Part shown: positions 3,122 through 46,713 of the stretch, in pieces | How positions within the stretch are numbered: the stretch's first letter is position 1 | How the letters are laid out: each line of letters starts with the position of its first letter | Assembly: GCA_965242695.1 (NCBI GenBank) | Contig: CBDESU010000002.1 | Span: 192,001 to 256,000, forward strand | Length of the DNA: 64,000 bases | From: Cenarchaeum sp. | GTDB taxonomy: Archaea; Thermoproteota; Nitrososphaeria; Nitrososphaerales; Nitrosopumilaceae | Reading direction: 5' to 3' | Notes under the pieces: model-generated | Databases searched by the model: none | What the model was told of the DNA's origin: nothing | Seen by the model: the letters and a program-made list of their open reading frames with translations, nothing else | Program-made: the position numbers and the translations under genes

Positions 3122-3200
3122 GCGGCGCGGCGCCGCTGGCTTGCAATTAACCCTTCCGGGGGCGCGCCGCGGGGCGCGATCGGCGCCCGCTCCAGCGCAG

Positions 3201-4274
3201 TCATCGGCCGGCCCCGGCCCCCGCCGCCGCACCGCCGGCGCCCCGGCCGCGCATCCACGAGATCACCTCGTCCAGGCTCTCGCCGAGGGACACCTCGGCC
3301 TCGAACCCGAGGACGCGCCTGGCCTTTCCCACGTCCGGCACGCGCCGCTGCACGTCGTGCTCGTACGGCGGGTCGGATACGAGCCTGAGCGGCCGCCCCG
3401 GGTTGATCCTCTCCCACACCATCCGGGCAAGCTCGGATACCGTCGTCCCCCTCGCCGACGACAGGTTGAAGTCTTCGTTTGCGGCATCGGGCGACTCCAT
3501 GGCCATCCGCAGCCCCCTCGCCACGTCCCTCCCGTTCGTGTAGTGCCGCACCTGCGCGCCCGACCCGAGGATGCGCAGGGGGTCCTGGCCGGCCAGGCAC
3601 TTTGCGGCCAGGTCGGGCACCACGTGCGACATGAGGAGCCTGACGTTGCCCGACATCACCTCTTCCTCGCCGAGCGCCCTGTCCTCGCCGACTCCGACGC
3701 AGTTGAACGGCCTCACTATCGTGTATGGCAGGCCGTACTGCTCGCGCGCGCCGTACGCAAAGTACTCGGACGCGAGCTTTTGAAAGCCGTACGTCGACGA
3801 CGGCGGCGGGCACGCGGCCTCGTGCCCCTCGGGCGTCGGCCATACGGACGCATTCTCAAAGACCATGCTCGAGCTGACGACGACGATGCGGCGGAGGCGT
3901 CCCCTCGAGTGCCGGTCCACCGCGATATCGAACGTGTTGGCCAGTATGCGTTCGTTGGCTGCGAGCAGGTCGTACGCCCGCCTGTGAAAGTACGATATGC
4001 CCCCGATCATGGCCGCGCCGGCCACGATGTAGTCGAACTCGGTGCCGGCCTCCTCCCCCTCTACCAGGCTGCGGCGGAACGCCTCGCCGGCGCAGTCGGC
4101 CCTGACAAGGCGGAACGACGGGTGCGAGTCGTGCGGGCGCACGAGCGGGCCGTACTTTGAGTAGTCGTCGACGCCGACGACCGAGTACCCGCGGCCGAGC
4201 AGCTCGGCGCACACGTACGAGCCGATGAACCCCTGCGATCCGGTGACGAGCACCGTCCCCCTCTCCGCCGCCAA
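3201..4274 (-). CDS. NAD-dependent epimerase/dehydratase (extended SDR)
   Basis: VLVTGSQGFIG, SSSMV, YGFQK (YxxxK), RPFN and RHYT motifs. Confidence 0.92.
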   Translation of the reverse strand: MAAERGTVLVTGSQGFIGSYVCAELLGRGYSVVGVDDYSKYGPLVRPHDSHPSFRLVRADCAGEAFRRSLVEGEEAGTEFDYIVAGAAMIGGISYFHRRAYDLLAANERILANTFDIAVDRHSRGRLRRIVVVSSSMVFENASVWPTPEGHEAACPPPSSTYGFQKLASEYFAYGAREQYGLPYTIVRPFNCVGVGEDRALGEEEVMSGNVRLLMSHVVPDLAAKCLAGQDPLRILGSGAQVRHYTNGRDVARGLRMAMESPDAANEDFNLSSARGTTVSELARMVWERINPGRPLRLVSDPPYEHDVQRRVPDVGKARRVLGFEAEVSLGESLDEVISWMRGRGAGGAAAGAGAGR

Positions 4275-33055: not shown

Positions 33056-33496
33056 CGGGGGCGGGGCGATTCGGTGCGGTATAAACCGTTGCAGGGGCGG
33101 CCGCGGTGTTAATGCACACTCAGGCGCAGGGCGCCTAGCGCAGGCGCTACACAGGAGACGCCCTGCGCCTGCCAACACCTAATCCGTGCTGCTATTGCCA
33201 TGCCTATCGTTGAAAGATACTAGCAGTATTGATTCACATATGCGGCGTGTCTGCATCCCATGAAGAAACGGACAGCGACAATGCCGTACCGGCCTGCAAT
33301 TGCAACGATTGTGTCCGCTGCGCAGCCCACGCACCAGCGGCGCCGCCTCCGCCGGCGACGGCCGGGCCGGGGCCCCAAGGAGGGCGGCGGCCGGGGCCCC
33401 AAGGAGGGCGGCGGCGGCCCGATCGCGCCTAGCGCCGCGCTCGCAGGTGGCGGGAACCGCCGGCGCAGGGGGCGCCTAGGCAGTCCGAAGGAGCCG

Positions 33497-34377
33497 TCAT
33501 GCATCGCCGATCCTGATCGCGCAGCGGCCGCCTCCGCCTCCGGCGCGCAGGCCGCCGTTCCTGTCCGGGCGCCTCGCAAATTCCTTCACGTCGATCCCGT
33601 CGTCCGGCGGGACGCGGCCGCGAAAGCCGCTCCCGCGCGCGCCGTCCCCGCCCCTGTCCAGACATGCGGCCTCGCACGCCCGCCTGCGCGCCTCCGCCGC
33701 CTCGCGGTATTCTTGGCGGTTCAGTTTCTGGCCGCCGCGCACCCTGACCGCGCCGCCCCTGATCGCAAACCCGCAACCGCCCGCACCGCCGCACAGGCGG
33801 GAAATCGGCCCAGAGGGGATGCTTTCGACATTTTTCCGCCCGCGGCCCCTCAGGACGGCGGCGGCAGGTCCCGCGGCGGCGCCCGCATCGACGCGGGCGG
33901 TCCCGTCGACGGGCCTTGGGCCGCAAATCCAGCAGACCCCCTCCGCATGCTCGCGGCAAGCGGCGCGCAGAGGTACCACGCGTCGTCTATGAGGGTGCAC
34001 CCGAGCAGGCCGGCCTTGGCGCCTCGCGTCTAGCCGCTTGTCCCGACCGCGGGCAGGACAAGAACGAAGAGGCCGCCTCCGGCCCCAAAAGGAGCGGGGC
34101 CTGGCCGGAAGGCGCCCCAAAGGAGCTGGGGCGGCCGGGCAGGGGCCGCTTGAACTGCAGCGGCACGTACCTGCCGTCCAGCAGCCCGACCTGGGAGTCG
34201 CAGCCCATGCGGGCCTCTGCATTCTGGGCCGGCGATGCCATCGCGATGCCGCCCTCGGCAGGGCCTCCCCCGCCCTCAGGGCAGCTTGCCAGGCAACGGA
34301 GCACGTTCACCTCGAGGGACGTCTCGCTCGGCTGCGGGCGCTCCGTACAGGAGCGCTCGCCCGGCTGCGGGCGCCAT
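33497..34377 (-). pseudogene. Frameshifted copy of the restriction-endonuclease-like gene at 37525
   Basis: SLEVNVLR, ASPAQNAEARMGCDSQV and LQFKRP; three frames are needed to align it to 37525-38421. Confidence 0.8.
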
Positions 34378-34898
34378 CGGGCTGGCGCCTGCACGGCATC
34401 GGCACGATCCACGCCCCCCCCCCCCATCTCGGACGGGCCGCCGGCAGGCTTGGGAACCCCGCCTCGAGCCGCCGGCGCGGCGCAGTCGGCCTCCTGCACC
34501 TCCACCCCCTCCGTCGCGGCGTCAGATACGGCTGCTGCGCGTCGAGGCGCGGCACGTCCCCTGGGACGGCAGGGCGGGCCGCAGGCCGGCACGGGCGACC
34601 GCCGCCGCGCGGCGGCGCTGGGCCCAATGGTTGAACCCATGTAAACCCCCGCGGGCGCGGCGGCTTATCGGGCGGTCTTAATTTTCAGCCACCAGCCGCG
34701 CCGTGTCCGCAGGGGCAGTGCGGGAGCAGTCCGCGTCTCTGGACGCGCTGCACGGGTTTGCGTTCCATCCCCAGGTCAGAACCGCCTGCCGCCTACAGAG
34801 TCCAACGCCCCACGGTTGCCATGAACCACGCCATCTTGGACGCAGCGCCTAGCGGCGCCTGCTGAACGTCAGGAGGCCGAACCTCGCAGTCCGGCCCG

Positions 34899-34952: not shown

Positions 34953-35225
34953 ATGCCATCAATAAGCACGGATCAGCACAACACGGCGTACGTGCAAACA
35001 GGCCTGTTGCGGTGTCCGCACCACAGGCGGGAGACGGTCCGAGCGCGGCCCCCGAGCGCCGGGGTCGACGTGCAGGGGCCGGGCCACAGCGACGAGTACA
35101 TCAAGTCGTGGCAGGCGCTCATGCCCTTGGACGCCCGGAACCTAACACCCGAGCAGAGGCGTATAATCCTAGACAAGCTGTACCGCCGGCACTTCATAGT
35201 GTACGACCGGCTCGCGGAGATCTAG
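34953..35225 (+). CDS. Putative Doc antitoxin
   Basis: Small ORF directly upstream of Doc. C-terminal helix ILDKLYRRHFIVYDRLAEI resembles Phd-type Doc-neutralising tails. Confidence 0.55.
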   Translation: MPSISTDQHNTAYVQTGLLRCPHHRRETVRARPPSAGVDVQGPGHSDEYIKSWQALMPLDARNLTPEQRRIILDKLYRRHFIVYDRLAEI

Positions 35226-35349
35226 CACGGGCGGTTGCATGTGATGCCGCCTTTGCCACATGCTAGACGCGGGATCGCGCTCAAGGAGCGCCCGCTCCGC
35301 GGCGTCCATGCTGGTACGGCGAAGGCAGAAGGGGCGGGGCGAACGACAC

Positions 35350-37113
35350 ATGGTTATCTATAGCCTGGCGTACGACGACATAATGGACATGCTCGGGACG
35401 CTAAACCGCCGTCATTGCGTGAATGCCACGGTAATGAACAAGGGCCAGCTAGAAGCGGCCCTAGAAAAACCGGATTTGTCCATGTTCGGCAAAGTGTTCT
35501 ATCCCGAACTGCATCAAAAGGCCGCAATTCTTATGGAGTCTCTCTGCAAATCCCACTGTCTAAGCGACGGGAATAAACGCACATCGATGATGGCGGCGGA
35601 GTACCTGGTCAGCGCAAATGGCGCTACGCTCGTACTTCCGCTAAAATCCATACGCCTAACTGTCGATTGCGCCATGGACAAAGACGACAAGATGTCCGAC
35701 GAGCTGATCATGTGGTTCAAGACCCACATCGCTCAAGACCCGATCCAGCTCTCCATAATGTTTGAAGAGCTGATCGAGGAGCGGTTGATCGTGACCACGC
35801 TACTGAGCCAAGGCGAGTATGACAAGGCTGAGAAGATTGTCGACAAATGGCTTGTTTTTGACAATTATCCCGAAAGCAAGGCGATGTGGGATGATCTGAC
35901 GGACAAATGGAAAAAGCGAGACAGATCGATGGGATCTGAGCCGGGGGCGTCACGATCGAATTTTTCTCCATGGCTGTCTATAAGCCCCGAACTCAGAATA
36001 GAGGACAGTGTTAACCTTGCATCGATCCTGCCTGATGCCAGAGCAACCAACCCCGTTTATACGGAACACAGCATGAGCGAGCTAAAAAGGGTAGAAAATT
36101 ACATACAGGCGCAATCTGCACAGAGTAGTACGTCTTCGCTGCAGCGGGCAGCAGGCATCTTGGAAGGCTTCCACAGTCACAAGAATGCGTGTTTGGTTTA
36201 CGACAAGTTGATCGAAGTGGAGGGGAGGAGCAATCGCATTATGCATCGCAAGTTGTTTAACTTAGTCTTTAGCGAGCAATACAATGAAGCGCTGGCCTTG
36301 TCGAACCAGTTGCTAGAGTTGGATCAAAACTCCGTCCACGTAAACAGACTCAGAGCCAGAACGTGCGACATCATGGGAGATCGTTTGTCGGCACTGGAGT
36401 CTGCAAACCGAGTCCTAAAACAGATCCCGGATGATCTCCCCATGCTTAAAATCAAGGTGGACATAATCCGTGAGGATTATCCGTCGGACGCCACAAAACT
36501 GGACAGGGAAATATACCGCCTAGACCCCGACGATCTCGTGTCAGCTAAAAATATGGCGGTGTCGCTATCCGATCAGGGCAGAAACGAGGAAGCCATAAAA
36601 CTATTTGACAAAATACTGTCCAGAGCGCCCCGAGATGCCGCGGCGCATTATAGCAAGGGGCTATGTCTGTCACGCTTGGACAAAAACGAGGATGCGCTGA
36701 CATATTATGAAAAATCACTGCAAGTCGACCCAAGATATGTCATGGCGTTAATTAACATGGGAGCCATCTATATGAATGATGACAAAAAGAATGAAGCGTA
36801 TGACTGCCTATCCAAAGCGCTGAAATTGAGCCCCGAACACCCCATTGGTCTGCTAAATATGGGGGTAGTGCTACTGTCGCAGGAAAATGCTCAAGAGTCT
36901 ATCAACGTGCTCAACAAACTCCTTTCGGTCGATCATCTTAATGCCAACGGCATGTACTTGCTAGCACAGGCATACGTAAAACGTGATAAAACAGTCCACT
37001 CGCTTGACATTCTAGAGCGCCTTGTAAACATAGACCCGTCCTACAAATCTCGGATAAAAAATGACCCCAATTTTTATCAATTGCGAGACTTGCGCCGCTT
37101 TCAAAATCTGTAG
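35350..37113 (+). CDS. Fic/Doc toxin fused to C-terminal TPR repeats
   Basis: LEAALEKP, FGKVFYPELHQKAA and HCLSDGNKRTS (Doc-type GNKRT); multiple TPRs (AHYSKGLCLSRLDK.EDAL..YEKSL.VDP). Low GC. Confidence 0.88.
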   Translation: MVIYSLAYDDIMDMLGTLNRRHCVNATVMNKGQLEAALEKPDLSMFGKVFYPELHQKAAILMESLCKSHCLSDGNKRTSMMAAEYLVSANGATLVLPLKSIRLTVDCAMDKDDKMSDELIMWFKTHIAQDPIQLSIMFEELIEERLIVTTLLSQGEYDKAEKIVDKWLVFDNYPESKAMWDDLTDKWKKRDRSMGSEPGASRSNFSPWLSISPELRIEDSVNLASILPDARATNPVYTEHSMSELKRVENYIQAQSAQSSTSSLQRAAGILEGFHSHKNACLVYDKLIEVEGRSNRIMHRKLFNLVFSEQYNEALALSNQLLELDQNSVHVNRLRARTCDIMGDRLSALESANRVLKQIPDDLPMLKIKVDIIREDYPSDATKLDREIYRLDPDDLVSAKNMAVSLSDQGRNEEAIKLFDKILSRAPRDAAAHYSKGLCLSRLDKNEDALTYYEKSLQVDPRYVMALINMGAIYMNDDKKNEAYDCLSKALKLSPEHPIGLLNMGVVLLSQENAQESINVLNKLLSVDHLNANGMYLLAQAYVKRDKTVHSLDILERLVNIDPSYKSRIKNDPNFYQLRDLRRFQNL

Positions 37114-37253
37114 TCACGACGAAAAATTTAGAGATGGCAGGGCAATTACACAGTTTAATTTTGTAATAATCCAGTTCGATGAAATGTACAAGGTGGCCTC
37201 CATATCATTGCGGACACCAACTGACAGGCCATTTACCCTGCACGCGACATGAA

Positions 37254-37476
37254 CGGGAGACGGGTCGGGCGCAGTCACCGAACACCGAGGGCACCGCGCA
37301 AGAGCCGGGTCACAGCGACGAGTGCATCAGGTCATGGCAGGCGCTCATGTCCTTGGACGCCCGGAACCTGACACCCAAGCAGAGGCAGACGATCCTAGAC
37401 AAGTTGCACAGCGGCACTCCATACTGTGCGACCGGCTCGCGGAGACCTAGCACGGGCGGTCGTGCGCGATGCCGCC
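37254..37476 (+). pseudogene. Degenerate copy of the antitoxin 3' part (direct repeat of 35028-35251)
   Basis: PGHSDECIRSWQALMSLDARNLTPKQRQTILDKL matches 34953, followed by a frameshift. Confidence 0.8.
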
Positions 37477-37524
37477 CTGGCGGCGGCCGGACGCGGGAAT
37501 GCGCCGGGCGGAGCGGCAGGGCAG

Positions 37525-38421
37525 TCATGCATCGCCGATCCTGATCGCATAGCGGCCGCCTCTGGCAGCAGAGGCGGTGCCCGTTCCGCTCCCGCCAGGA
37601 CTCTCCGTGTTGCCCTCTTCGCGCGCGTGCCCAAGCGCGGTCGGGACCTCGGAGGCGGGTGCGTGCAGGTCTCCCCCGTCCTTGTAGTCAGGGTGCGCCT
37701 CTGCATGCGCCCGTGCGCGCCCCGCTGCCGCCTCCCTCCATTCCTTGCAGCCCCACTTCCCGCCGCCGCGCATCCTGACCGAGCCGCCCCTTACTGCAAA
37801 CCCAAGGCCGCCCGTGCCGTCGCACATGCTCGAAATCGGCCTGGAGTAGAGTCCCTCGATCCACTTCCGCCCGCGTCCCTGCGAGACGTCGACGGCGGCC
37901 CCTGCGCCGGCAGCGGCATCGGCGGCGTCAACGCGGACGGTCCGGACGAACGTCTTGGCACTGCGAACCCAGCGGCGGCCCTCCGTCGTGCTGGCCGCAA
38001 GCGGCATGTAGAGGTCCCACGCGTCGACGACGAGGGTGCGGCCGAGCAGGCCGGCCCTGGCGCCCCACATCTTGCCGTTCGTCCCGACCGCGGGCAGGAC
38101 AAGGAACGAGGATGCCGGGCAGGTCTTCAGGAGCGCCGAGACCTGGCGGGAGGGCACCTTGAAGGACAGCGTGTCGCCGCTTGGCAGGGGCCGCTTGAAC
38201 TGCAGCAGCACGTACCTGCCGTCCGGCAGCTTGACCTGCGAGTCGTAGCCTAGGAGGGCCTCTGCATTCTGGGTCGGCGATGCCATCTCAACATAGCCCT
38301 CCTCAAGGGGTACCTTGCGCTCGATGCAGTTTGCTAGGTAGCGGAGCACGTTCACCTCGAGGGACATCTCGCTCGGTGCGGACGCGCCGGACAGGAGCGT
38401 TCGCTTGGCTGCGGGCGCCAT
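37525..38421 (-). CDS. PD-(D/E)xK-variant (D...QxK) restriction-endonuclease-like protein
   Basis: SEMSLEVN, SPTQNAEALLGYD and YVLLQFKRP motifs. Confidence 0.65.
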   Translation of the reverse strand: MAPAAKRTLLSGASAPSEMSLEVNVLRYLANCIERKVPLEEGYVEMASPTQNAEALLGYDSQVKLPDGRYVLLQFKRPLPSGDTLSFKVPSRQVSALLKTCPASSFLVLPAVGTNGKMWGARAGLLGRTLVVDAWDLYMPLAASTTEGRRWVRSAKTFVRTVRVDAADAAAGAGAAVDVSQGRGRKWIEGLYSRPISSMCDGTGGLGFAVRGGSVRMRGGGKWGCKEWREAAAGRARAHAEAHPDYKDGGDLHAPASEVPTALGHAREEGNTESPGGSGTGTASAARGGRYAIRIGDA

Positions 38422-38685
38422 CGGGCGGGCACCCCGCACGGGCGTAATAGCGCTTTGCCGTCCGATCGCCTTGATGCCGTCAGCCGTCACAAGGGCCATT
38501 GCGGCGAGCCGCCCGAGCGCCCCGCGCCACCTGCGGCCAGGGTGCGGGCAGGGGGCGCAGTCGGCCCGCCGCTCCCGCACCCCGTGCCGCCTGCGCAGGC
38601 GCTCCCGAGATGTAGCTGCCGCCCCGCCAAGCAATGCCGCCGGAAGCGCCGCGCCCCGAGCGCCGCGGCGGCCTTGGACTGCGGC

Positions 38686-39156
38686 TCACCACATCTCGTA
38701 CTTGCTGAGCGCGGCGTACTCGGGGTACCTTGCATAGACGTGCCTCAAGAGGTCGGGCAGGGCGGTGTCGTTGAACTCGGCCTTTATTTCCTCAAGCTTG
38801 TCGTACGCCTTGTTGAAGCCGTATTCTTCGTACCGCGGATCGGACAAGAGCCTGCCGGCGGTCTCCCTGCCCGCCTCGGTGATGGTATAGGTGTACACCG
38901 TCCTGGCGGGGCGATCAGAGTCTGACCTGCCCTCGCCTATCAGCCCGTCCGACGTGAGCGCGTCGATGTCCCGCTGAAGCGTCTTCGAGTACGGCCCGTA
39001 GTCGAACGGGGCAAAGCCCAAGTTGGGAATGCGCTCATCGTCCTTGAGGTGCTCCCGCATGAGAAAGATCATCTTTTGGAAGCGCGTCCGGCCTCGGACG
39101 GGCGCGCCGCCGCATGCATGCGCCAAGAGGAGCGGGTATACCTGCCTAGGAGTCAA
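38686..39156 (-). CDS. SocA/DUF4065-like winged-helix protein
   Basis: VRGRTRFQKMIFL, F.PFDYGPYSKTL..DIDAL, YTITEAG and LLRHVYARYPEY. TTG start overlaps the TrmB stop. Confidence 0.75.
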   Translation of the reverse strand: MTPRQVYPLLLAHACGGAPVRGRTRFQKMIFLMREHLKDDERIPNLGFAPFDYGPYSKTLQRDIDALTSDGLIGEGRSDSDRPARTVYTYTITEAGRETAGRLLSDPRYEEYGFNKAYDKLEEIKAEFNDTALPDLLRHVYARYPEYAALSKYEMW

Positions 39157-39886
39157 GATCCGGCACCCTAACCTCCTTGCCTGCCTTAAACCCCCTCTTG
39201 AACCTTTCCACATGCGGCGCCGCAAAGCTGCGATCCCTGACCAGCAGGGCGCAGTCGGGCGCCTCAAACCTGGCCATGACGACCTCGTCGTCAATCAGGC
39301 AGCACGTCTCAATGTCCCTGCACGTGCGGGCCTCTGCCCCGCGCATGTAGGGCTCGCCCGACATTGAAAGGGACTCGGGCACGGCCAGCTCGACCTTCAC
39401 CGTCTCCGCCTTTTTTGCCAGCATCTCGGCATGCGCATCAAGCCACCGCAGGTCGCGATCCGCTATCCTCACCGACTCCTTGCAGCCGGCCAAGAGCTCG
39501 TGCATCTGCACCTGTATGCCTCCCATGCCGTACACCGTCCAGCAGGCCGCGCTCCGGGCACCCTGCGCGTGCCTCTCCTCGTACGCCTCTTCGGCCGCGC
39601 CGACTGCCGCGTCCCTTGATGCCTGAAGGGCCGTGAGCTCCTTGTCGAGGACCCCCCGCGGGTGTTGCGCGTCGTACAGGGCGGGCCTGTCGCCGATCTT
39701 TACGATGACGCCCCTCTGGTTGAGCTCCTCAAGGACGGAGTATATCTTGCCCTGGGCGACCCCCGACCTAGCAGCCAGGTCGGCTGGCTTCATCACCCCC
39801 TGCTCGACCAGGGTGGCATAGACGGATGCGTTGCCCTCGCTCCAGCCGATCCCCTTTAACGCCTCGACGAGGCGATCGCGGGCCAT
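39146..39886 (-). CDS. TrmB-family transcriptional regulator
   Basis: L..IG.SE..A.VY.TL...G......LA..SGV.QGKIYSVL..L..RG, RPALY.A..P, followed by a PLD-like effector domain. Confidence 0.88.
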   Translation of the reverse strand: MARDRLVEALKGIGWSEGNASVYATLVEQGVMKPADLAARSGVAQGKIYSVLEELNQRGVIVKIGDRPALYDAQHPRGVLDKELTALQASRDAAVGAAEEAYEERHAQGARSAACWTVYGMGGIQVQMHELLAGCKESVRIADRDLRWLDAHAEMLAKKAETVKVELAVPESLSMSGEPYMRGAEARTCRDIETCCLIDDEVVMARFEAPDCALLVRDRSFAAPHVERFKRGFKAGKEVRVPDLDS

Positions 39887-39904
39887 CCGGCCGCGCCGCC
39901 TCAT

Positions 39905-40005: not shown

Positions 40006-40302
40006 ATGAGGAAAAATGTCATCGTCATCGATGCCGCCAACGCCCGAGAGGCAAGCGTGAGCGTCGATGACGGCGAGACAATCGACTCTGCCCTCGACAG
40101 GGGGTACGAGGAGCTCGGAGAGACGCGCCGCCCCAACGCCCATTTTGTGGACGGAGAGGGGAATAGCCTCGACGGCAAGCTGAGCGAGCCGGTCCGCACG
40201 ATCGAGACCGACCAGGACGGCAACACGACCATCGAGATCAGGAGCCCCACAGGGGGCGCCTGCCTTTTTTCTATCGGAGGGGACGGGGATGGCGCCTGCT
40301 AG
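40006..40302 (+). CDS. Ubiquitin-like (beta-grasp) protein with GG at 83-84 and a 14-aa extension (BilA-like)
   Basis: Beta-beta-alpha pattern (NVIVID..ASVSVDDGETIDSALDRGYEELG), ends TIEIRSPTGG-A; first gene of an E2/JAB/E1 operon. Confidence 0.7.
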   Translation: MRKNVIVIDAANAREASVSVDDGETIDSALDRGYEELGETRRPNAHFVDGEGNSLDGKLSEPVRTIETDQDGNTTIEIRSPTGGACLFSIGGDGDGAC

Positions 40303-40819
40303 GCCCGACACCGCGATCGCCCGATCGCAGTTCAAAGAGGACCTGATCAAGGTCGCGGGCAGCAGGCGCGCCAGGCAGCACGGCTGGCTGTTCAAGCCGG
40401 ACTACAAGGGCCTGCGCCTGCGCGTCGACATGTGGTCGCTTGACAAAGGCTGCGAACGGCGCGACGACTACCACATAGACATGGACATGTCGTACTACCG
40501 CGACTGGCCGCCCGGCGTGACCTTTGTCAACCCGGACACGGGATCCTTCGATCCGAACAGGGACGCGCGGTGGCTTCCCGCAAACCCCGCCATGAACCCA
40601 CCCGGCGTCAATATCGGCTACCACCTCTCGTACACCCTGACCGACGGCGTGACCAAGCAGATGGTCTGCAACTCGATGGTGCTAGAGTACTACCAGTCGA
40701 ACCATGCGCCCAAGCCCGAAGAGGTGTGGGATTCCAGGCGCCACACCCTGCATGCGACCCTGACGGTGCTCCAAGACCTGCTAAGGGAGCCGTACTACGG
40801 AGGTCGACGCTCGCAATGA
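40289..40819 (+). CDS. Prokaryotic E2 ubiquitin-conjugating-like enzyme (BilB-like)
   Basis: DMSYYRDWPPGVTFVNP (E2 Y..PP.V.F motif) and MVCNSMVLEYY..NH...W with a candidate catalytic Cys. Confidence 0.75.
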   Translation: MAPARPDTAIARSQFKEDLIKVAGSRRARQHGWLFKPDYKGLRLRVDMWSLDKGCERRDDYHIDMDMSYYRDWPPGVTFVNPDTGSFDPNRDARWLPANPAMNPPGVNIGYHLSYTLTDGVTKQMVCNSMVLEYYQSNHAPKPEEVWDSRRHTLHATLTVLQDLLREPYYGGRRSQ

Positions 40820-41364
40820 GCCCCTCTCAGGACGCTATCCCGATCGCGGCTGCGGGCGACGGCAAAAGGACGCTCCTTGTCCAGAAAAGCCTCGTCGAGG
40901 AGACGTACCGCATGTTCGAGCGAAACAGGTGCAGGCAGAGGGTGTCGGTCGCCTACTGGTACGGGACAGGACGGCCGCAACTCGGGACAAGCGCCGTCCT
41001 GTCCTTGGGAGTGCCCCGGGCCGAGTGCAATGTGGTCGACTACCATGTGGAAGAGCCAGAGATCGCCCGCCTCGGCCACGCAATAAGGAGACAGGCGCCG
41101 GGGTCGATGGGGTCGCTGGCGCAGTTCTATACCCAGCCGAGCGGGGACGGACGACACTCCAAGAACGAAGACCTCAACGCCATCAGCCTGCGCGACGGCT
41201 TTCTGTCCCTGGCCGCGCCCTACTACGGGAAGAGGACGGAGCCGCTCATGGGCAACATAACCGTGCACGAGTGCTGGAAGGGCCGCTGGCGCGTACTGGG
41301 AGAGTCGGAGCGCCCTGGGCGCATCAAGATCATCGACAGCCTTGTCGACATGGAGGCGGGCTGA
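40816..41364 (+). CDS. Catalytically degenerate JAB/JAMM protein
   Basis: Paralog of 43107 with E to V, HTH to YTQ and SxxD to SxxE. ATGA-coupled to the E2 gene. Confidence 0.75.
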   Translation: MSPSQDAIPIAAAGDGKRTLLVQKSLVEETYRMFERNRCRQRVSVAYWYGTGRPQLGTSAVLSLGVPRAECNVVDYHVEEPEIARLGHAIRRQAPGSMGSLAQFYTQPSGDGRHSKNEDLNAISLRDGFLSLAAPYYGKRTEPLMGNITVHECWKGRWRVLGESERPGRIKIIDSLVDMEAG

Positions 41365-43110
41365 ATGGAAAGGCACCTGGACAGCCGCGGGGGCCGCCTG
41401 CCTCGAATCGGTGCAGGGGCCAAGAGGGTGGCCGTCTCCATATCCGAGGCGGCCGCGGAGGGTTCCGAGGGGCAGGCCATGCTGTGGACCGCCTGCAACC
41501 TGCTGTGCAGGCTAAAGGGAGTCGTCGGCGAGCTGGCAGTCTGCGTCCCAGAGGGGGTCGACGTGGCGGCAGGCGCTCCCCCTCCCGCGCCAGGGCGGGG
41601 CGATCTTGGCAGGTCCCTCGTCGACTCGCTCGACGCGTGCTCGCGCGGCTGCGATGTGCGGCTCGCGCAGGGCGAGCCGGAGCAGGGGCTTGATGCCGCC
41701 GTGCTGCTCGGCACGGGCGCACCAGCCGGCACGGGGGCGGCATTCGAGGTCCATGCGGCCTGCTCGGGATGGCTGGCATACGTGTGGCAGGGCTCGAGAC
41801 CCGCGCCGGATGCGGCCGCGCCTAGCGGCGACGGCCACAACCCGTTCGGCGCGGCGACGGCGGCCTGCCTTGCGGTCGGAGAGGTGTTCAAGCGCCTAGG
41901 CGGCCTGGACGTCAAAAAGGGCCGGTTTGCCGAGTCGCTGTGCTTTTCGACCTACGATCTAGAGGTGCATGGAGGACGGGAGGATGCCCCGGCCAACCCG
42001 GCCCTGCCTGCGCATATAGATCTCGGGCGGATTGCGGTCTGCGGCGCCGGCGCAGTGGCGCATGCGTTCTGCCAGGCGATCGCCTCGCTTGGCGAAGTCA
42101 AGGCCGACCTGCTCGTCGTCGACAGAAAGTCCAACTACGCCCTGGGCGACGAGTCCGTCGAGCCGACCAACCTGGCGCGGTACGTCATGGCGACTGGCGC
42201 CGACATAGGGCGCCCCAAGGCCGAGGTACTGTGCGGGAGGATCCGCTCGCCCTGCATACGGGCGGAGCACACCGACGAGGGGATAGAGGCCCTGGCCAGC
42301 AGCGGCGGGCTGTCCGGCGAGGGGCACGTCGTCTCGTGCGTCGACAACAACAGGGCGCGGCACGCCATCCAGGGCTGCATCCCCCGCATCATACGCGGCG
42401 GCAGCGTGTACGACCTGTCCTCCAGGGTGTCCGTATACGACATGGCAGGCGGCACCGCGTGCCTCAGGTGCGAGAACCCCGTCGAGGCGGGCGAGAGCGA
42501 CGAGGGCGTGGCCGAGCGGCTGCGCGACATGGAGCCGGATCGGCGGCGGGCCGAGGCGGGGCGCGCCGGCGTAGACCCCGGCGACCTGGACAGGTACCTA
42601 GAGTCGCCCGCGTGCGGCGCGCTCTCGGGCGATGCGCTGCGCAGGCTCGCCGCCGCCCTTCCCCCCGAATTCTCGGTCAACTTTGCGACCATGCTGAGCG
42701 GCACCCTCCTCGCCGCCGAGGCGTTCAAGGCGGCCTGCCCGCCCCTGCGCCCCGCGCTGGACGGGGCGGCGCGCTCGGACATGTTCTACAGCTTTTGGAA
42801 CTGCCGCCACCGGCTCTCGCGCACGGCGCCGTTCCCCGAGTGCTGGTGCCGCGCAGGGGGCACGACGCCGAGGGACATACATGGAGAAAAGTGGGGGCCG
42901 AAGGCGGCAGCGGCTGGACGGCAAGGGGCAAGCCGCGCCCTGCGCGGCGGGGCGGCGCCGGAGGCGGGCGGGGCGGCAGGAGACGAATGGCGTCCGGCAG
43001 GGGGCCCGAAGGGGAGGGGCGCAGGAGTGGCCGGCCGACTCGAACCCCGCCTCCACGTGCGCCCGCAAGCTGGGGCGGCAGGGCTGCGGCGCGGAGCGTG
43101 GCGCGCATGA
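41365..43110 (+). CDS. E1 ubiquitin-activating-like enzyme (ThiF) with N-terminal inactive domain (BilD-like)
   Basis: N-terminal GW.A..NPFGA..AACLAVGEVFK; GAGAV, D..VEPTNLARY, KAEV and SCVDNNRAR; CLRC; candidate catalytic CG; C-terminal CWC. Confidence 0.88.
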   Translation: MERHLDSRGGRLPRIGAGAKRVAVSISEAAAEGSEGQAMLWTACNLLCRLKGVVGELAVCVPEGVDVAAGAPPPAPGRGDLGRSLVDSLDACSRGCDVRLAQGEPEQGLDAAVLLGTGAPAGTGAAFEVHAACSGWLAYVWQGSRPAPDAAAPSGDGHNPFGAATAACLAVGEVFKRLGGLDVKKGRFAESLCFSTYDLEVHGGREDAPANPALPAHIDLGRIAVCGAGAVAHAFCQAIASLGEVKADLLVVDRKSNYALGDESVEPTNLARYVMATGADIGRPKAEVLCGRIRSPCIRAEHTDEGIEALASSGGLSGEGHVVSCVDNNRARHAIQGCIPRIIRGGSVYDLSSRVSVYDMAGGTACLRCENPVEAGESDEGVAERLRDMEPDRRRAEAGRAGVDPGDLDRYLESPACGALSGDALRRLAAALPPEFSVNFATMLSGTLLAAEAFKAACPPLRPALDGAARSDMFYSFWNCRHRLSRTAPFPECWCRAGGTTPRDIHGEKWGPKAAAAGRQGASRALRGGAAPEAGGAAGDEWRPAGGPKGRGAGVAGRLEPRLHVRPQAGAAGLRRGAWRA

Positions 43111-43847
43111 GCGGATACTGGCGGCCGAGCCACGAGGTCCTGCGGGCCAGCAAGAGCGGCAGGCGCCTTGCCGTGCCGAGGCGCCTGCTGGACGCGACGT
43201 ACGACATATTCGCCGAGCACGGGGACCGCCGCGAGGAGTCCGTGGTCTACTGGTACGGGGCCGAGTCGCTCCGCACCGGCCGCGGCGGAAAGATCGACTT
43301 GGTCGCGGCGGTCGGGGTGCCCCGCGGCAGGTACGCCGAGGGGCAGTTCGCGGTGCAGGCCGACGACGCGGCGCGCCTGGGCAGGGCGATGATGTCGCAG
43401 TCCCTCTCGTGCCTGGCGCAGTTCCACACGCATCCCGGCCGCGGCACCGAGCACTCCGACCACGACGACGGGAACGCGATCAGCATGCGCGACGGCTTTC
43501 TGTCGCTCGTCGCGCCCTGCTACGGGGGCGCAGGGCGCTCCCTGCGGGACGGCGTGACCGTTCACGAGGCCTGGGGGCGCCGGTGGTGCGTGCTGGGCGG
43601 CGGGGCGGCCGAAAAAAGAATCTTTGTCATTGACGACATTGTCGACCAGCGGCAACCGCTGCGCGGAGAAAGGGGCGGCGGGGCCGAGGCCGGGACGGGC
43701 GGGGCGCCGCCTGCGCCGCCCGTACTGCGCCGCGCCGGCGCTGGGGACGCAGACGGAACGGCGCCTGGGCGCGGCGCGGCCGGGCCGCTCTCCCGCGCGG
43801 CATCAGTCATACTATGCAGGATAAAGAGGGCTTTCGGCAGGGCGTAG
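43107..43847 (+). CDS. JAB/JAMM metallopeptidase, intact motif (BilC-like)
   Basis: REESVVYWYG ... AQFHTHPGRGTEHSDHDD matches E...HxH...SxxD. ATGA overlap with the E1 gene. Confidence 0.88.
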   Translation: MSGYWRPSHEVLRASKSGRRLAVPRRLLDATYDIFAEHGDRREESVVYWYGAESLRTGRGGKIDLVAAVGVPRGRYAEGQFAVQADDAARLGRAMMSQSLSCLAQFHTHPGRGTEHSDHDDGNAISMRDGFLSLVAPCYGGAGRSLRDGVTVHEAWGRRWCVLGGGAAEKRIFVIDDIVDQRQPLRGERGGGAEAGTGGAPPAPPVLRRAGAGDADGTAPGRGAAGPLSRAASVILCRIKRAFGRA

Positions 43848-43989
43848 GCAGATCCCGCGTGGGGCGCCGCTGGCCCGGAGGGGCGCGAGGGTGGCGGCGC
43901 GGGGCGCCGTCCCCGGGCGGTGCGGCAGAGCCGCCCGGCGGGCGGTCCTGTCCATGGGGGTGCGGCGCGCCGCTGGCCGCACTTGTGGC

Positions 43990-44606
43990 GCTGGCAGGCG
44001 CGGCCGATGCGACAAGGCTCCTGCCCAGGCACATAATCCTGCTGTACATCTGGTACGCCAAGACGAACGCCTACTAGGACAGCATCGCCATTCAGAGGAG
44101 GATCGGGCAGAAGACTGCGAGTCGCTACATAGCAATCGCCAAGGATGTGCTGTCCCGGACGCTCCCGACGCAGTGCAAATACGGCGGGCACATCCAGAGG
44201 CAGGCCCACATGCGCGAGATGAAAAAGTACCTGCCGGGCCGGACCGCGGCACGCGCATCGAGGACGGCATGCTCAACAGGATGCAGCGGTCGGGGCAGAA
44301 GGGCCCTCACGACAGGTCGTACAACGGGCGCAAAAAGGCCTACATGGCAACACGCTGGGCAGGTTCAGCGCCCGCGGCGAGATGGTCCCGGTGACTCCGA
44401 CCGACAAGGGCACATGCAACGACGTCACCATGGCGAGGAAGTACTGCCTGCACCGGGTCATTGCCACGCAGTGGCTGCACGATCCACACGCGCCGCAGAT
44501 GGACCGCGTGCACCGCATCGACGACACGGAGTTCGCATGCATCGAGACGGAAAAGCCCTGCGCGGACACGTTCGGGCCGGGCCAGAACCACCCCCGCGTC
44601 GACTAG
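43990..44606 (+). mobile_element. IS5-family (ISL2/DDE_Tnp_4-like) transposase pseudogene
   Basis: LLPRHIILLYIWYAKTNAY*DSIA...IGQKTASRYI (HTH_Tnp_4-like), IEDG...RMQRS...RSYNGRKKAY and KGT.NDVTM; contains stops and frameshifts. Confidence 0.6.
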
Positions 44607-44705: not shown

Positions 44706-45677
44706 TCAATGATCGTCAAGTGTAGTCTGAACCGCAGACATGTTTTCGCTACACATCTTGTCCAAGAGAAATTCCCTGACATTCTTTTGGCGTGGTAGTG
44801 CATTAATGCGGTACCTGCCATCAGGAAGTTTTTTCGCTAATTTCATTTTATATAGCGTTTTCAGTCCGCGTGTTATCCAGCGAGTCCTTATCTGACTTTG
44901 CTCACCTTGTAGCCCCGACCAGCTTGCATAGTAGTTGTCAAGTCTACTTTTGAGATCTTCAACTGTCACTGTAATGTAGCCCTTCTTGTCAGCAATCAAT
45001 GGCAGTACGTTTTGGTAAAGCATGGACAGCACATAAAGGTCTGGAGGACTCGCTCTTACAAACAATCTTTTTTCATACCTGGCATGCGTCACCTCTATAG
45101 GCATCTCAATGCAAGCGTTCAGGCGTTTGTCGAAATACTTGCAGCCGGTACTTCCACTATCAAGGCCAAGTCGTATCACCTCCCGGGTCTTTCGACCCTT
45201 TATTTTTACTTCCTCCCAATGACCCAAACATAGATTTGTTGCGGTGATGGATGCACCGCTCTTATTTTTTTGCATCAGGACGCGGGCGTGTTCTACATCA
45301 ACCTTACGGACAAGAAGCAGTATAGAGTGCTCCCTGATTCTACCGTTATTAGTCTTCCATCCCGTCTCAATTTCGGCATATTTGGCGATTTGTTCCCCCA
45401 GGTCACGAACCATGTGCTCCTGGTCCTGCGGCAACGACGACTTGATTTCGCAGACTATTCCTTTTCTGTCATTGTCACACTGGAAAATTGCATCGGGCTG
45501 GACATCTTTTGATGCAGCCGTGCGCATTGTCGGCTCGCTTACCTTGAAGCTGCACTCCTCGTTGGGGCCAAAGGCATCTTTCAGTCCCACAGATACTACC
45601 ACTGTGGCATAGTATGCATCGTATTCAGCGTTGCACCGTTCTCTGCAGTTTTCTGCGGAGTGCTCGTCACCATTCAT
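44706..45677 (-). CDS. PD-(D/E)xK nuclease with probable C-terminal winged helix (component B)
   Basis: VQPDAIFQ...IVCEIKSSLP...QIAKY; WITRGLKTLYKMKLAKKLPDGRY; ends QTTLDDH. Overlaps component A by 11 nt. Confidence 0.8.
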   Translation of the reverse strand: MNGDEHSAENCRERCNAEYDAYYATVVVSVGLKDAFGPNEECSFKVSEPTMRTAASKDVQPDAIFQCDNDRKGIVCEIKSSLPQDQEHMVRDLGEQIAKYAEIETGWKTNNGRIREHSILLLVRKVDVEHARVLMQKNKSGASITATNLCLGHWEEVKIKGRKTREVIRLGLDSGSTGCKYFDKRLNACIEMPIEVTHARYEKRLFVRASPPDLYVLSMLYQNVLPLIADKKGYITVTVEDLKSRLDNYYASWSGLQGEQSQIRTRWITRGLKTLYKMKLAKKLPDGRYRINALPRQKNVREFLLDKMCSENMSAVQTTLDDH

Positions 45678-46713
45678 ACTCGCCGATCACGCCCTCGTAA
45701 AATGCAGATGCCAGGAACTCTGTAAGTCGCAGCAACGACGCCTCGGATGTCCGGATCTGCGGTATTATGGCCAGTGCATCGTCACCCACAGACCTTACGG
45801 CAATTGTGGAGTTGTCCATTCTGTCCACTATGGATATGTAGAGGTGTGGGTTGCCGGCATGCACTATCACATAGTTGCAGTGTGTATACTCATCGATCAG
45901 ATTGCAAAACCGCTTCATGTCGTCATCGTCTGCGAACACGTCCCTTTTGTACTTGATCAGCAAAGGCTTCGGTTCTTTGTCAGCGCGTTCGCTCCGGCTG
46001 CGGTGCGAAAAGCGGTTGCGGCGTTCTAATCCATTGTCTATGATCGGGCGCAGTACGTTGGCGTATATCCCCTCTACGTTTCCACTGTGGATAGTGATCA
46101 GCCCCTTGCGGGATACAGTTATGTCCATGGCCTCGCGTCCATCTGTGAATGCGCGTAGGCTGTCAATCACCAAGTTCTTTTTTTCGGCGTCTTTGAATAC
46201 ATCTTCGACAGCGTCATACTCGCGGTTCGCAGCAGTTTTGTCCCATTCCAGAGAGGTCTTTGGCATGGTGCCAATGGTCCTTTTCTTCACGGATTTCTTG
46301 TGCTTTAGTGACGCGCCTGTATTCGCCTCAAACTCTGCAAGGATGCTCCTGATTTTTCCAGACTCGGTAAACGGTGCAAGCACCTCCGGCCCTAGTCTCT
46401 TGACGATGCGCTGTACTATGTCAAAAAACCCACCTCCTTCGCCGCTGAACAGGAGCACATGGCTGTCCTGCTGTAGCGAGTGGAGCCTTCCGTTGGTGTC
46501 TTCGCATGTCACTGAATATATGCTATGGGTGAACGAATCGTGCTGGTCCTTGGAGATCATTGCCACCTTGGCGACAGCATGACTCACTGTGGTGATCATG
46601 CTGGAAATGTCCCCCTCCGACATGAGGCACTGGACCTTTAGCGATCTGCACTCCCTCATGTAGGAATTGACCGCCATGGCTAGATCCAGCGGCATGTCTA
46701 TCGAGTCGCTCAC
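45667..46713 (-). CDS. Hypothetical 348-aa protein, component A
   Basis: C-terminal half aligns with 12690 (RSR, PL.IK, F.D, RF, H..NP, VD..D.S, I.PQ.RT..ASL.RL, F.EG...EY). Low GC. Confidence 0.85.
   Translation of the reverse strand: MSDSIDMPLDLAMAVNSYMRECRSLKVQCLMSEGDISSMITTVSHAVAKVAMISKDQHDSFTHSIYSVTCEDTNGRLHSLQQDSHVLLFSGEGGGFFDIVQRIVKRLGPEVLAPFTESGKIRSILAEFEANTGASLKHKKSVKKRTIGTMPKTSLEWDKTAANREYDAVEDVFKDAEKKNLVIDSLRAFTDGREAMDITVSRKGLITIHSGNVEGIYANVLRPIIDNGLERRNRFSHRSRSERADKEPKPLLIKYKRDVFADDDDMKRFCNLIDEYTHCNYVIVHAGNPHLYISIVDRMDNSTIAVRSVGDDALAIIPQIRTSEASLLRLTEFLASAFYEGVIGEYEW

What the first reader, a model, noticed from the sequence alone, without database searches (positions are those of the whole stretch)
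40816..43847. Inactive plus active JAMM paralog pair, reminiscent of eukaryotic MPN-/MPN+ heterodimers
Seen: 40816 and 43107 are clear paralogs (S.V.YWYG, GVPR, LAQF, NAIS.RDGFLSL.AP.YG, TVHE.W..RW.VLG). 40816 has lost the catalytic Glu and the metal ligands (HTH to YTQ, SxxD to SxxE) yet remains full length, codon-normal and translationally coupled in the canonical BilC position. Known: Rpn11/Rpn8, CSN5/CSN6 and BRCC36/Abraxas pair an active JAMM with an inactive one. Inference: a prokaryotic pseudo-DUB acting as activator, scaffold or Ubl reader. I do not know this from described Bil operons.
Basis: partly seen in the sequence, partly recalled or inferred. Interest (0 to 1): 0.85.

Follow-up and report, generated by a model that had tools for sequence, protein, structure and literature searches.

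The report
Dead and live JAB peptidase pair
An archaeal ubiquitin-like tagging operon carries a conserved, catalytically dead copy of its trimming peptidase in the usual slot and a live copy added at the end, and the two are predicted to pair up much as such pairs do in eukaryotic cells.

Summary
Five translationally coupled + strand genes encode a Ubl precursor, an E2-like protein, JAB* (40816-41364), a BilD-like E1 and JAB (43107-43847). JAB* and JAB are 40% identical (E 4e-38).

JAB keeps the catalytic set E/HxH/SxxD. JAB* has V/YxQ/SxxE at the residues that match BilC E33 and D106.

JAB* is not decaying:
- Four intact orthologues at 67-88% identity keep the same lesions.
- Family-conserved sites stay conserved in them, except at the metal site.
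- JAB* diverges 1.7-2.7 times faster than the JAB core but slower than the JAB tail.
- It folds as a BilC-like MPN domain (pLDDT 89.5; 8tyx TM 0.83).

The pair recurs on at least two variant contigs. It was unique among 401 genomes of the class that were searched. Relatives have the canonical Ubl-E2-JAB(active)-E1 operon.

A complex model supports an isologous JAB*/JAB dimer (ipSAE 0.83, best control 0.01). Homodimers were not tested, so heterodimer preference is open.

This is a new variant of Bil-like operons and a convergent analogue of MPN+/MPN- pairs. Its function is untested.

The parts
38686..39294 (-). Small conserved protein encoded divergently from the operon. The listed ORF has 202 aa; homology to the relative begins at residue 47, so the true start is probably near 39156.
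   Evidence: 46% identity over 155 aa to the 154-aa protein in the same position in L005. No Pfam family.
39146..39904 (-). TrmB-family winged-helix regulator, divergent from the operon
   Evidence: Pfam TrmB 1.1e-13. 39% identity to the gene in the same position in L005.
40006..40302 (+). Ubl precursor, 98 aa. Conserved G83-G84-A85 followed by a 14-residue tail.
   Evidence: Aligns with the Ubl genes of L004 and L005, with GGA invariant. blastp 25-26%, E 2e-11 and 6e-10. No Pfam or PDB sequence match.
40289..40819 (+). E2-like protein, 176 aa, with invariant Cys127 in CNSM
   Evidence: 57% and 44% identity to the E2-position genes of L005 and L004, C127 invariant. The AF2 model is poor (pLDDT 53); its three best Foldseek hits are the E2(BilB) chains of 8tz0/8tyz at E 0.014-0.026 and the rest are UBC-fold E2s. 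No Pfam, PADLOC or PDB sequence hit.
40816..41364 (+). JAB*, 182 aa. BilC-like MPN fold with Glu->Val43, His->Tyr105, His->Gln107, Asp->Glu118.
   Evidence: residues. (pLDDT 89.5; 8tyx_B E 1.4e-12, TM 0.83 normalised to the target, rmsd 1.9). (conserved orthologues, purifying selection).
41365..43110 (+). BilD-like E1, 581 aa. Core is residues 1-510 (41365-42894). Residues 511-581 (42895-43110) are a low-complexity tail absent from relatives.
   Evidence: ThiF 4.2e-11, PADLOC BilD 5.1e-11, PDB 8tyz_A BilD 1.7e-15. Aligns to the 518- and 526-aa E1s of L005 and L004 only over residues 1-510 and 1-513. The tail has no coding periodicity (GC1/2/3 0.90/0.79/0.72) and carries indels in a variant contig.
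43107..43847 (+). Active JAB, 246 aa. Core is residues 1-182. A variable linker follows, then a conserved C-terminal motif at about residues 230-246 (about 43794-43844).
   Evidence: PADLOC BilC 1.3e-9, Prok-JAB 3.1e-4 (below Pfam's cut-off), PDB 8tyx_B 2.2e-6. E44/H107/H109/S117/D120 present. Five orthologues at 77-91% identity by the search's own BLASTP figures. Linker variable and C-terminal motif conserved.

Best explanation
This is a five-gene variant of a Bil-like (Type II-like) Ubl-conjugation operon in an archaeon. By the genome search's grouping, the archaeon is in the same family as a Nitrosopumilus MAG.

Inferred from the families:
- The Ubl is made as a precursor with 14 residues after its Gly-Gly, so it must be trimmed by a JAMM peptidase.
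- The E1 activates the trimmed Ubl and the E2 (Cys127) transfers it to targets.
- The only JAMM in the operon with an intact Glu/His-x-His/Ser-x-x-Asp site is the extra gene after the E1, so that copy does the trimming and any deconjugation.

Shown here:
- The copy in the ancestral BilC slot (JAB*) has lost the general base and the zinc ligands.
- It keeps the fold and is kept by selection.

Inferred from one structure prediction:
- JAB* serves as the non-catalytic half of a back-to-back, pseudo-symmetric JAB*/JAB dimer.
- The dimer forms through helix 1, strand 3, helix 2 and the C-terminal strand.
- Neither catalytic-site position lies in the predicted interface.

The arrangement would then parallel eukaryotic MPN-/MPN+ modules, in which a dead subunit positions, stabilises or restrains the live one. 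It arose independently here. What the dead subunit adds (stability, regulation of deconjugation, or a second non-cleaving Ubl site) is not known.
For: Operon identity:
- E1 matches BilD (PADLOC 5.1e-11; PDB 8tyz 1.7e-15) and JAB matches BilC (PADLOC 1.3e-9; 8tyx 2.2e-6).
- A 74-sequence family profile hits 8tyx_B at 1.2e-28 over residues 8-161 of 162.
- Six-gene synteny with L005.

Loss of catalysis:
- JAB* has V43/Y105/Q107/E118.
- BilC E33A and D106A lose cleavage activity (passages).
- The DUB active site is essential for Bil defence (passage).

Selection on JAB*:
- 4 further orthologues at 67-88% identity (by the search's figures), 3 of them full length (179-182 aa) and P0004 recorded from residue 33 on (150 aa), without internal indels apart from one 3-residue gap, all with E->V and H->Y.
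- The share of JAB* columns that never vary rises 0.47, 0.55, 0.75, 0.85 with family conservation (Spearman -0.30, p 4e-5).
- 20 of 26 highly conserved family columns are kept. The 4 of those 26 that vary inside the clade lie in the metal-site motifs: A102, the H107 position, S115 and the D118 position.
- JAB* identity is 88/77/68%, against 96/88/82% for the JAB core and 77/50/57% for the JAB tail, on the same three contig pairs.

Fold: pLDDT 89.5, pTM 0.85; best hit 8tyx_B E 1.4e-12, rmsd 1.9 A.

Pair kept together:
- The contig-length figures pair JAB* and JAB orthologues on three other contigs: 7643, 16549 and 259406 bases.
- Variant contigs X5 record 12 (99 differences, no gaps) and X6 record 20 (290 differences) span JAB*-E1-JAB. 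None of the 12 listed indels (of 14) lies in JAB*.

Dimer:
- ipSAE 0.83/0.83/0.81, best of 3 controls 0.01. The mark was reached by 116 of 157 solved complexes and 2 of 215 mismatched pairs.
- The runs agree in at least 79% of contacts and the partner's pLDDT is 81.
- Catalytic positions are not in the interface list.
- 33 interface columns are shared by both chains.
Against: - The dimer is a prediction only. No homodimer controls (JAB/JAB, JAB*/JAB*) could be run, because the cap is one job. Close cousins of a true partner also pass this test (10 of 12 colicin pairs).
- Both chains used the same family alignment, so the pass may only show a family-wide dimer mode or a likeness to solved MPN dimers.
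- Interface residues are no more conserved than the rest: JAB* 23/39 against 82/138 (p 1.0); JAB 27/37 against 98/140 (p 0.84).
- Published JAMM crystal dimers often do not hold in solution, and their interfaces differ (passage).
- The conserved C-terminal motif of JAB is not in the predicted interface, so it points to some other partner.
- The NJ tree does not place JAB* and JAB as sisters. JAB* groups with the active P0007/P0028 (70% bootstrap) and with P0013/P0014 (95%). The pair is therefore not a simple recent duplicate of a homodimer.
- No dN/dS could be computed, and no expression data are held.
Confidence: 0.5

Rival explanations
1. JAB* acts without touching the live JAB. It keeps an ancestral structural job of the BilC-slot protein, after catalysis passed to the added JAB. 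That job could be docking on the E1 (or the E1:E2 complex), or holding the Ubl or Ubl-conjugates in its uncut groove as a reader or protector.
For: - In all 16 other loci from the class survey the JAB gene directly precedes an E1.
- One family member, P0031, is a JAB-ThiF(E1) fusion.
- In the solved Type I Bub protein BubCD, the JAB domain is 'rigidly docked' on the E1 domain (passage).
- JAB* keeps 20 of 26 family-conserved columns outside the metal site.
- JAB* is translationally coupled to both E2 and E1.
Against: - No JAB*-E1, JAB*-E2 or JAB*-Ubl model could be run.
- The one model that was run places JAB* confidently on JAB.
- No fused form of JAB* was found among longer proteins (weak evidence).
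- This reading and the heterodimer reading do not exclude each other.
Confidence: 0.3
2. JAB* is a decaying duplicate with no function, still open only because stop codons are rare in this G+C-rich DNA.
For: - It evolves 1.7-2.7 times faster than the JAB core.
- The second-His position drifts (Q/R/L), and S115 and E118 vary.
- Long spurious ORFs are common in the other frames here.
Against: - Four other records keep the protein down to 67% identity (three full length, P0004 recorded from residue 33 on), without frameshifts.
- Its variable sites avoid family-conserved columns.
- It diverges more slowly than the low-complexity JAB tail on the same contigs.
- It has normal coding periodicity, unlike the E1 and JAB tails.
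- It gives a confident fold.
Confidence: 0.05
3. JAB* is still an enzyme, using Tyr105, His114, Glu118 or Asp119 in a different chemistry or with a different metal.
For: H114 and D119 are invariant in the family and in JAB*. Y105 is invariant in all 5 JAB* sequences.
Against: - The general-base Glu is Val in 5 of 5.
- The second ligand position is Q/R/L, so it is not constrained.
- BilC E33A and D106A lose robust cleavage, the paper noting likely residual low-level activity for E33A (passages).
- No precedent was seen in the papers I read.
Confidence: 0.03

Closest known systems
Type II BilABCD operon (Ensifer aridi; structures 8tyx/8tyy and 8tyz/8tz0; preprint 10.1101/2023.09.26.559546, passages read)
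   Same: - Ubl with extra residues after the reactive Gly.
- E2 with a catalytic Cys.
- JAB gene between the E2 and the E1.
- The E1 and the JAB have BilD and BilC as their only or best solved relatives.
- A two-gene regulator module is encoded divergently upstream.
   Different: - The BilC-slot JAB is dead and a fifth gene, an active JAB with a tail, follows the E1.
- The paper reports a constant bilA-B-C-D order in all cases.
- The Ubl tail is 14 residues, against 'up to nine' in the paper.
- The upstream genes are a TrmB-like regulator plus a small protein, not CapH/CapP.
- The host is an archaeon.
- Matches to the PADLOC models are weak (about 1e-9 to 1e-11), and the E2 and Ubl match no model.
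Eukaryotic MPN+/MPN- pairs (Rpn11/Rpn8, CSN5/CSN6, BRCC36/Abraxas)
   Same: - A live JAMM paired with a dead paralogue that keeps the fold.
- A predicted dimer that leaves the catalytic groove free.
- Rpn8, CSN6 and Rpn11 chains are among the structural neighbours of JAB*.
   Different: - No common descent of the pairing. Both copies are BilC-like and the dead clade is confined to close relatives of this genome.
- No PCI-type complex is present.
- The dimer is untested.
[quoted passage not shown]
Inactive JAB domains fused to E2-like proteins in Pycsar-like-4 loci (preprint 10.64898/2026.08.12.744502, one passage read)
   Same: A dead JAB next to E2/E1 functions, with a separate active JAB peptidase gene in the same locus.
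   Different: - There the dead JAB is a domain fused to the E2, in a cyclic-nucleotide defence system.
- Here it is a free-standing gene in a Ubl operon.
- I did not compare sequences.
Canonical four-gene operons of related archaea (L004 in a Nitrosopumilus MAG, L005 in a Thaumarchaeota MAG) and a second operon in this genome (L008)
   Same: Same gene families and order. L005 also has the same two upstream genes. E2 identity is 57% and 44%.
   Different: Their BilC-slot JAB is active and no JAB follows the E1. Their E1s end at 518 and 526 aa, without the tail.

Membership tests
JAMM/MPN+ metallopeptidase (asked of JAB*) | Motif E...H-x-H-x7-S-x-x-D (general base and zinc ligands) | tested here: not met
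   JAB* has V43, Y105, Q107, S115, E118. The same holds in all 5 members of its clade (E->V and H->Y in 5 of 5).
JAMM/MPN+ metallopeptidase (asked of JAB*) | MPN fold | tested here: met
   AF2 pLDDT 89.5. Foldseek 8tyx_B E 1.4e-12, TM 0.83; then Rpn11/Rpn8, AMSH and CSN6 chains.
BilC (DUB of Bil operons), asked of the 3' JAB | Sequence match to BilC with an intact catalytic motif | tested here: met
   PADLOC BilC 1.3e-9; PDB 8tyx_B 2.2e-6; E44/H107/H109/S117/D120 present. The Pfam Prok-JAB score (21 bits) is below the 25-bit cut-off.
BilC (DUB of Bil operons), asked of the 3' JAB | Gene lies between bilB and bilD | tested here: not met
   It follows the E1; the slot between E2 and E1 holds JAB*.
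BilC (DUB of Bil operons), asked of the 3' JAB | Cleaves the Ubl precursor and Ubl conjugates | not testable with these tools
   Needs a cleavage assay.
Type II BilABCD operon | E1 of BilD type | tested here: met
   PADLOC BilD 5.1e-11. BilD (8tyz_A, 1.7e-15) is the only PDB sequence match. ThiF 4.2e-11. The inactive-plus-active adenylation domain layout was not examined.
Type II BilABCD operon | E2 (BilB) with a catalytic Cys | tested here: inconclusive
   Cys127 is invariant in 3 of 3 sequences. There is no sequence match to any library or to the PDB. On a pLDDT-53 model the three best Foldseek hits are BilB chains, but only at E 0.014-0.026.
Type II BilABCD operon | Ubl with a reactive C-terminal Gly | tested here: inconclusive
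   GGA is invariant in 3 of 3 Ubl-position proteins, with a 14-residue tail here. The fold was not modelled, and there is no library match.
Type II BilABCD operon | CapH/CapP regulators upstream | tested here: not met
   The upstream divergent genes are a TrmB-family regulator and a small protein with no Pfam match.
Type II BilABCD operon | Anti-phage or anti-virus defence | not testable with these tools
   Occurrence is patchy: 15 of 401 genomes of the class, counting this one. That fits an accessory system but shows nothing about function.
MPN+/MPN- heterodimer module | Paralogous pair, one live and one dead, encoded together | tested here: met
MPN+/MPN- heterodimer module | Physical heterodimer | tested here: inconclusive
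   ipSAE 0.83, best control 0.01 (116 of 157 solved complexes and 2 of 215 mismatched pairs reach the mark). The runs agree in at least 79% of contacts and the partner's pLDDT is 81. Homodimers were not tested, and the interface shows no extra conservation.
MPN+/MPN- heterodimer module | Descent from the eukaryotic Rpn8/Rpn11-type duplication | tested here: not met
   Both copies are nearest to BilC. The dead clade is 5 sequences within a family of 65 representatives.

The most novel reading that the evidence does not exclude
An independently evolved archaeal MPN+/MPN- deubiquitinase. The dead JAB* would be an obligate partner that the live JAB needs, either for activity or to keep it from stripping conjugates, inside a Bil-like tagging system. 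The Rpn8/Rpn11 logic would then have arisen a second time in a prokaryote, and could be studied in a minimal two-protein form.
Probability: 0.4. Interest if true: 0.75.

Novelty: new variant of a known kind. Interest (0 to 1): 0.6.

Why it matters
Dead enzyme partners are a hallmark of eukaryotic JAMM deubiquitinases (proteasome lid, COP9 signalosome, BRISC). A 2018 paper stated that this organisation was not known in archaea (passage).

This operon offers a small, free-standing pair of a live and a dead JAB, with its substrate, E1 and E2 encoded alongside. It also has natural four-gene controls in related genomes and in the same genome.

If the pair does form a complex, it gives a simple system for asking why a pseudo-peptidase is worth keeping. 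It would also show how an added paralogue can free the resident enzyme to become a non-catalytic subunit.

If the pair does not form a complex, JAB* is still a clear case of a selected pseudo-enzyme in a prokaryotic Ubl pathway.

Tried and rejected
No dN/dS was computed.
- Read laying printed only 40 of 371 difference rows and 12 of 14 indels. Among the printed rows, two lie in JAB*: 40980 A>C (Gln to His) and 41295 A>G (synonymous). I do not use the apparent scarcity as evidence.
- A low-depth 214-base contig in X5, about 85% alike, skips 40825-40897. It is unexplained and may come from another organism.
- No RNA holder was listed.
- The search for longer, fused relatives of JAB* found none (weak evidence).
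- Sequence searches of the PDB with JAB*, the E2 (single sequence and profile) and the Ubl gave nothing significant.
- The tree programs were not available. I used my own neighbour-joining tree with 200 bootstraps on 44 of the 88 sequences (ids up to P0049, at least 150 aa, without P0027). It is rougher than maximum likelihood.
- Interface residues are not more conserved than the rest.
- The E2 model is too poor for firm fold claims.
- Earlier notes of this scan held nothing on this genome or sequence.
- Apart from listings and abstracts, I read only matched passages of seven papers.
- The supplementary operon tables of the Bil and Bub preprints could not be seen and might list such variants.

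Full report
ANATOMY

Between 40006 and 43847 five + strand genes abut or overlap:
- a 98-aa Ubl-like protein (40006-40302)
- a 176-aa E2-like protein (40289-40819)
- JAB* (40816-41364, 182 aa)
- an E1 (41365-43110, 581 aa)
- JAB (43107-43847, 246 aa)

The junctions are ATGA (E2/JAB*), TGAATG (JAB*/E1) and ATGA (E1/JAB).

Library matches:
- The E1 matches ThiF (4.2e-11) and PADLOC BilD (5.1e-11). Its only PDB sequence match is BilD (8tyz_A, 1.7e-15).
- JAB matches PADLOC BilC (1.3e-9). Its only PDB sequence match is BilC (8tyx_B, 2.2e-6).
- JAB*, the E2 and the Ubl match no library model.

Divergently upstream lie a TrmB-family regulator (39146-39904, 1.1e-13) and a small protein.

I aligned all 88 family sequences held at that point:
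- 74 carry the full E/H/H/S/D set.
- 8 are fragments that lack the N-terminal part but keep H/H/S/D.
- 1 (P0027) lacks both His.
- 5 are JAB* and its orthologues, with Val for the Glu, Tyr for the first His, Q/R/L for the second His, S/T, and E (D in P0006).

A 74-sequence family profile hits BilC at 1.2e-28 over nearly its whole length. It aligns its Glu column with residue 33 of the E33A chain, and the first Asp of HSxxDD with the BilC stretch HSTTDD. According to the paper passages I read, E33A and D106A abolish robust cleavage by E. aridi BilC. A DUB active-site mutant inactivates the Collimonas Bil system.

JAB* IS KEPT BY SELECTION

Orthologues:
- A word-indexed search found 4 orthologues at 79, 88, 76 and 67% identity, plus one active relative at 49% (6 hits among 178 candidates, counting the query).
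- The orthologues align without internal indels apart from one 3-residue gap, and all share the lesions. P0004 is recorded from residue 33 on (150 aa).

Site pattern, over 177 alignment columns:
- The share of columns invariant within the JAB* clade rises with conservation in the rest of the family: 0.47, 0.55, 0.75, 0.85 (Spearman -0.30, p 4e-5).
- 20 of 26 highly conserved family columns are retained.
- The 6 replaced are E43V, H105Y, H107Q/R/L, D118E, V133A and R180E.
- The 4 that vary inside the clade lie in the metal-site motifs: A102, the H107 position, S115 and the D118 position.

- JAB* identity is 88/77/68%.
- The JAB core is 96/88/82%.
- The low-complexity JAB tail is 77/50/57%.
- JAB* therefore evolves 1.7-2.7 times faster than the live enzyme but slower than a weakly constrained segment.

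Other signs:
- JAB* has normal coding periodicity (GC1/2/3 0.61/0.49/0.84), unlike the E1 and JAB tails.
- The AF2 model is confident (pLDDT 89.5, pTM 0.85).
- Its best structural match is BilC (8tyx_B, E 1.4e-12, TM 0.83 normalised to the target, rmsd 1.9 A), followed by Rpn11/Rpn8, AMSH and CSN6 chains.
- A language-model look-up also lands on Prok-JAB clusters (0.95).

THE PAIR TRAVELS TOGETHER AND IS LINEAGE-SPECIFIC

- JAB has orthologues at 77-91% identity by the search's own figures. The contig-length figures pair P0004/P0008 (7643), P0005/P0010 (16549) and P0006/P0011 (259406). That these are the same contigs is an inference.
- Two variant contigs were laid on the window. X5 record 12 covers 40373-44000 with 99 differences and no gaps. 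X6 record 20 covers 40097-43945 with 290 differences.
- Both span JAB*-E1-JAB. The listed indels lie only in the E1 and in the JAB tail, but just 12 of 14 indels were printed.
- A full HMMER scan of 1.84 billion representatives found only 65 relatives at E up to 0.001.
- In 401 genomes of the same class, 15 (counting this one) have a BilC-like JAB at E up to 1e-5.
- Only this genome has two adjacent copies. G004 has two copies more than 900 kb apart.
- All 16 other matches keep the catalytic motif, and each is followed by an E1.
- L004 (a Nitrosopumilus MAG) and L005 (a Thaumarchaeota MAG) show the canonical Ubl-E2-JAB(active)-E1 operon with no JAB after the E1.
- L005 also shares both upstream genes. 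Identity to the window is Ubl 25%, E2 57%, JAB* 39%, JAB 45%, E1 43%, TrmB 39%, small protein 46%.
- L010, from a genome the tool places in the window's family, is identical to L004 over the Ubl, the E2 and the 500 E1 residues compared.

ORIGIN

- In my neighbour-joining tree (44 sequences, 177 columns, 200 bootstraps), JAB* sits on a long stem.
- It groups with the active P0007/P0028 (70%) and with P0013/P0014 (95%). The operon's own JAB clade (100%) is separate.
- This argues, tentatively, that the 3' JAB was added from a related operon or by an old duplication, and that the resident BilC-slot gene then lost catalysis.
- The E1 aligns to its relatives only up to about residue 510.
- Its 71-residue tail and the linker of JAB lack coding periodicity, share a G-rich 32-nt repeat and carry indels in X6. 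This looks like a seam.

THE DIMER TEST

One job was allowed. I sent full-length JAB and JAB*, each with the 74-row family alignment (result).
- ipSAE was 0.83, 0.83 and 0.81. The best of 3 controls was 0.01.
- The mark was reached by 116 of 157 solved complexes and 2 of 215 mismatched pairs in the tool's calibration, which holds only roughly here because my own alignments were used.
- The runs agree in at least 79% of contacts, and the partner's pLDDT is 81.
- The interface on JAB is residues 20-34, 50-74, 87-100 and 173-185. On JAB* it is 21-36, 51-69, 82-99 and 171-181.
- By the JAB* model's secondary structure these are strand 1/helix 1, strand 3, helix 2 and the C-terminal strand.
- 33 interface columns are shared by both chains, so the interface is isologous.
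- The catalytic positions of both chains lie outside it.

Caveats:
- MPN dimers have been solved, so the pass may reflect likeness to them.
- Close cousins of a true partner also pass this test.
- Homodimers were not tested.
- Interface residues are not more conserved than the rest.
- JAMM crystal dimers are often monomers in solution (passage).
- The conserved C-terminal motif of JAB is not in the interface and may bind something else.

MECHANISM

Shown:
- a dead but selected BilC-fold protein in the BilC slot
- a live JAB appended after the E1
- a Ubl with a 14-residue tail after the invariant GGA

Inferred from the family:
- The live JAB trims the tail and may deconjugate.
- The E1 and the E2 (Cys127 invariant) conjugate the Ubl to targets.

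Inferred from one model: JAB* pairs with JAB.

The main rival is that JAB* keeps a structural role on the E1/E2 machinery or on the Ubl. Support for this comes from:
- the JAB-E1 fusion P0031
- the JAB domain docked on the E1 domain in BubCD
- the E2-inactive-JAB fusions mentioned for Pycsar-like-4 loci

The two readings can both be true.

COMPARISON AND NOVELTY

- The system works like a Type II Bil operon, and its E1 and JAB are nearest to BilD and BilC.
- It fails two stated features of that family: an active JAB between the E2 and the E1, and CapH/CapP upstream.
- The passages I read describe four genes in a constant order.
- It resembles MPN+/MPN- modules in logic, not in descent.
- I rate it a new variant of a known kind. 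It is of real interest to people who study prokaryotic ubiquitin-like systems and pseudo-enzymes, but its key functional claim rests on a single prediction.

Noticed in passing
G000:C2:424561-427839 (locus L008; about 190 kb beyond the window): The same genome holds a second, canonical Bil-like operon: E2-like (L008 767-1234), active JAB (1243-1779) and E1 (1728-3275). Its E2 carries a C...REYHD...H...DPW-type motif like the E. aridi BilB sequence printed in the Bil preprint. A 58-62% identical copy lies in the sister genome G004 (L023).
   Followed up: partly
window 42895-43110 and 43653-43793: The E1 tail (residues 511-581) and the JAB linker are G+C-rich and of low complexity, and lack codon periodicity. 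They share a 32-nt G-rich repeat (42944-42975 and 43675-43706, 81%). The E1 tail carries several indels and a replaced 69-nt stretch in the X6 variant contig. This may be the seam where the second JAB was joined on.
   Followed up: partly
window about 43794-43844 (JAB residues about 230-246): A C-terminal motif, RAAS(I/V)(I/L)LC(R/K)IKRA(F/L)GRA, is conserved in all 6 JAB orthologues behind a variable linker. It is absent from the roughly 176-181-aa family members and from the predicted JAB*/JAB interface. It could be a docking peptide for an unknown partner.
   Followed up: no
window 33493-34390 / 37521-38433 and 34998-35256 / 37224-37481: Two sets of direct repeats, 78-93% identical, flank a lower-G+C gene for a Fic/DOC-TPR protein (35260-37113; Fic 2.5e-8, many TPR families, weak PADLOC PDC-S23). 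The larger repeat holds paralogous minus-strand ORFs.
   Followed up: no
window 44706-46713 (- strand): Two overlapping genes (323 and 348 aa) lie in a 54% G+C island just downstream of the operon. They have no Pfam or PADLOC match and may be foreign accessory genes.
   Followed up: no
window 40006-41364 versus 41365-43652: There is a step in composition inside the operon. Ubl, E2 and JAB* have 63-64.5% G+C. The E1 core and the JAB core have 71%. GC3 is 0.81-0.85 for the first three genes against 0.92 for the JAB core.
   Followed up: no
protein P0031: A 646-aa member of the same JAB family is fused to a ThiF/E1 domain and has an active JAB motif. This shows a natural JAB-E1 fusion within this family.
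   Followed up: partly
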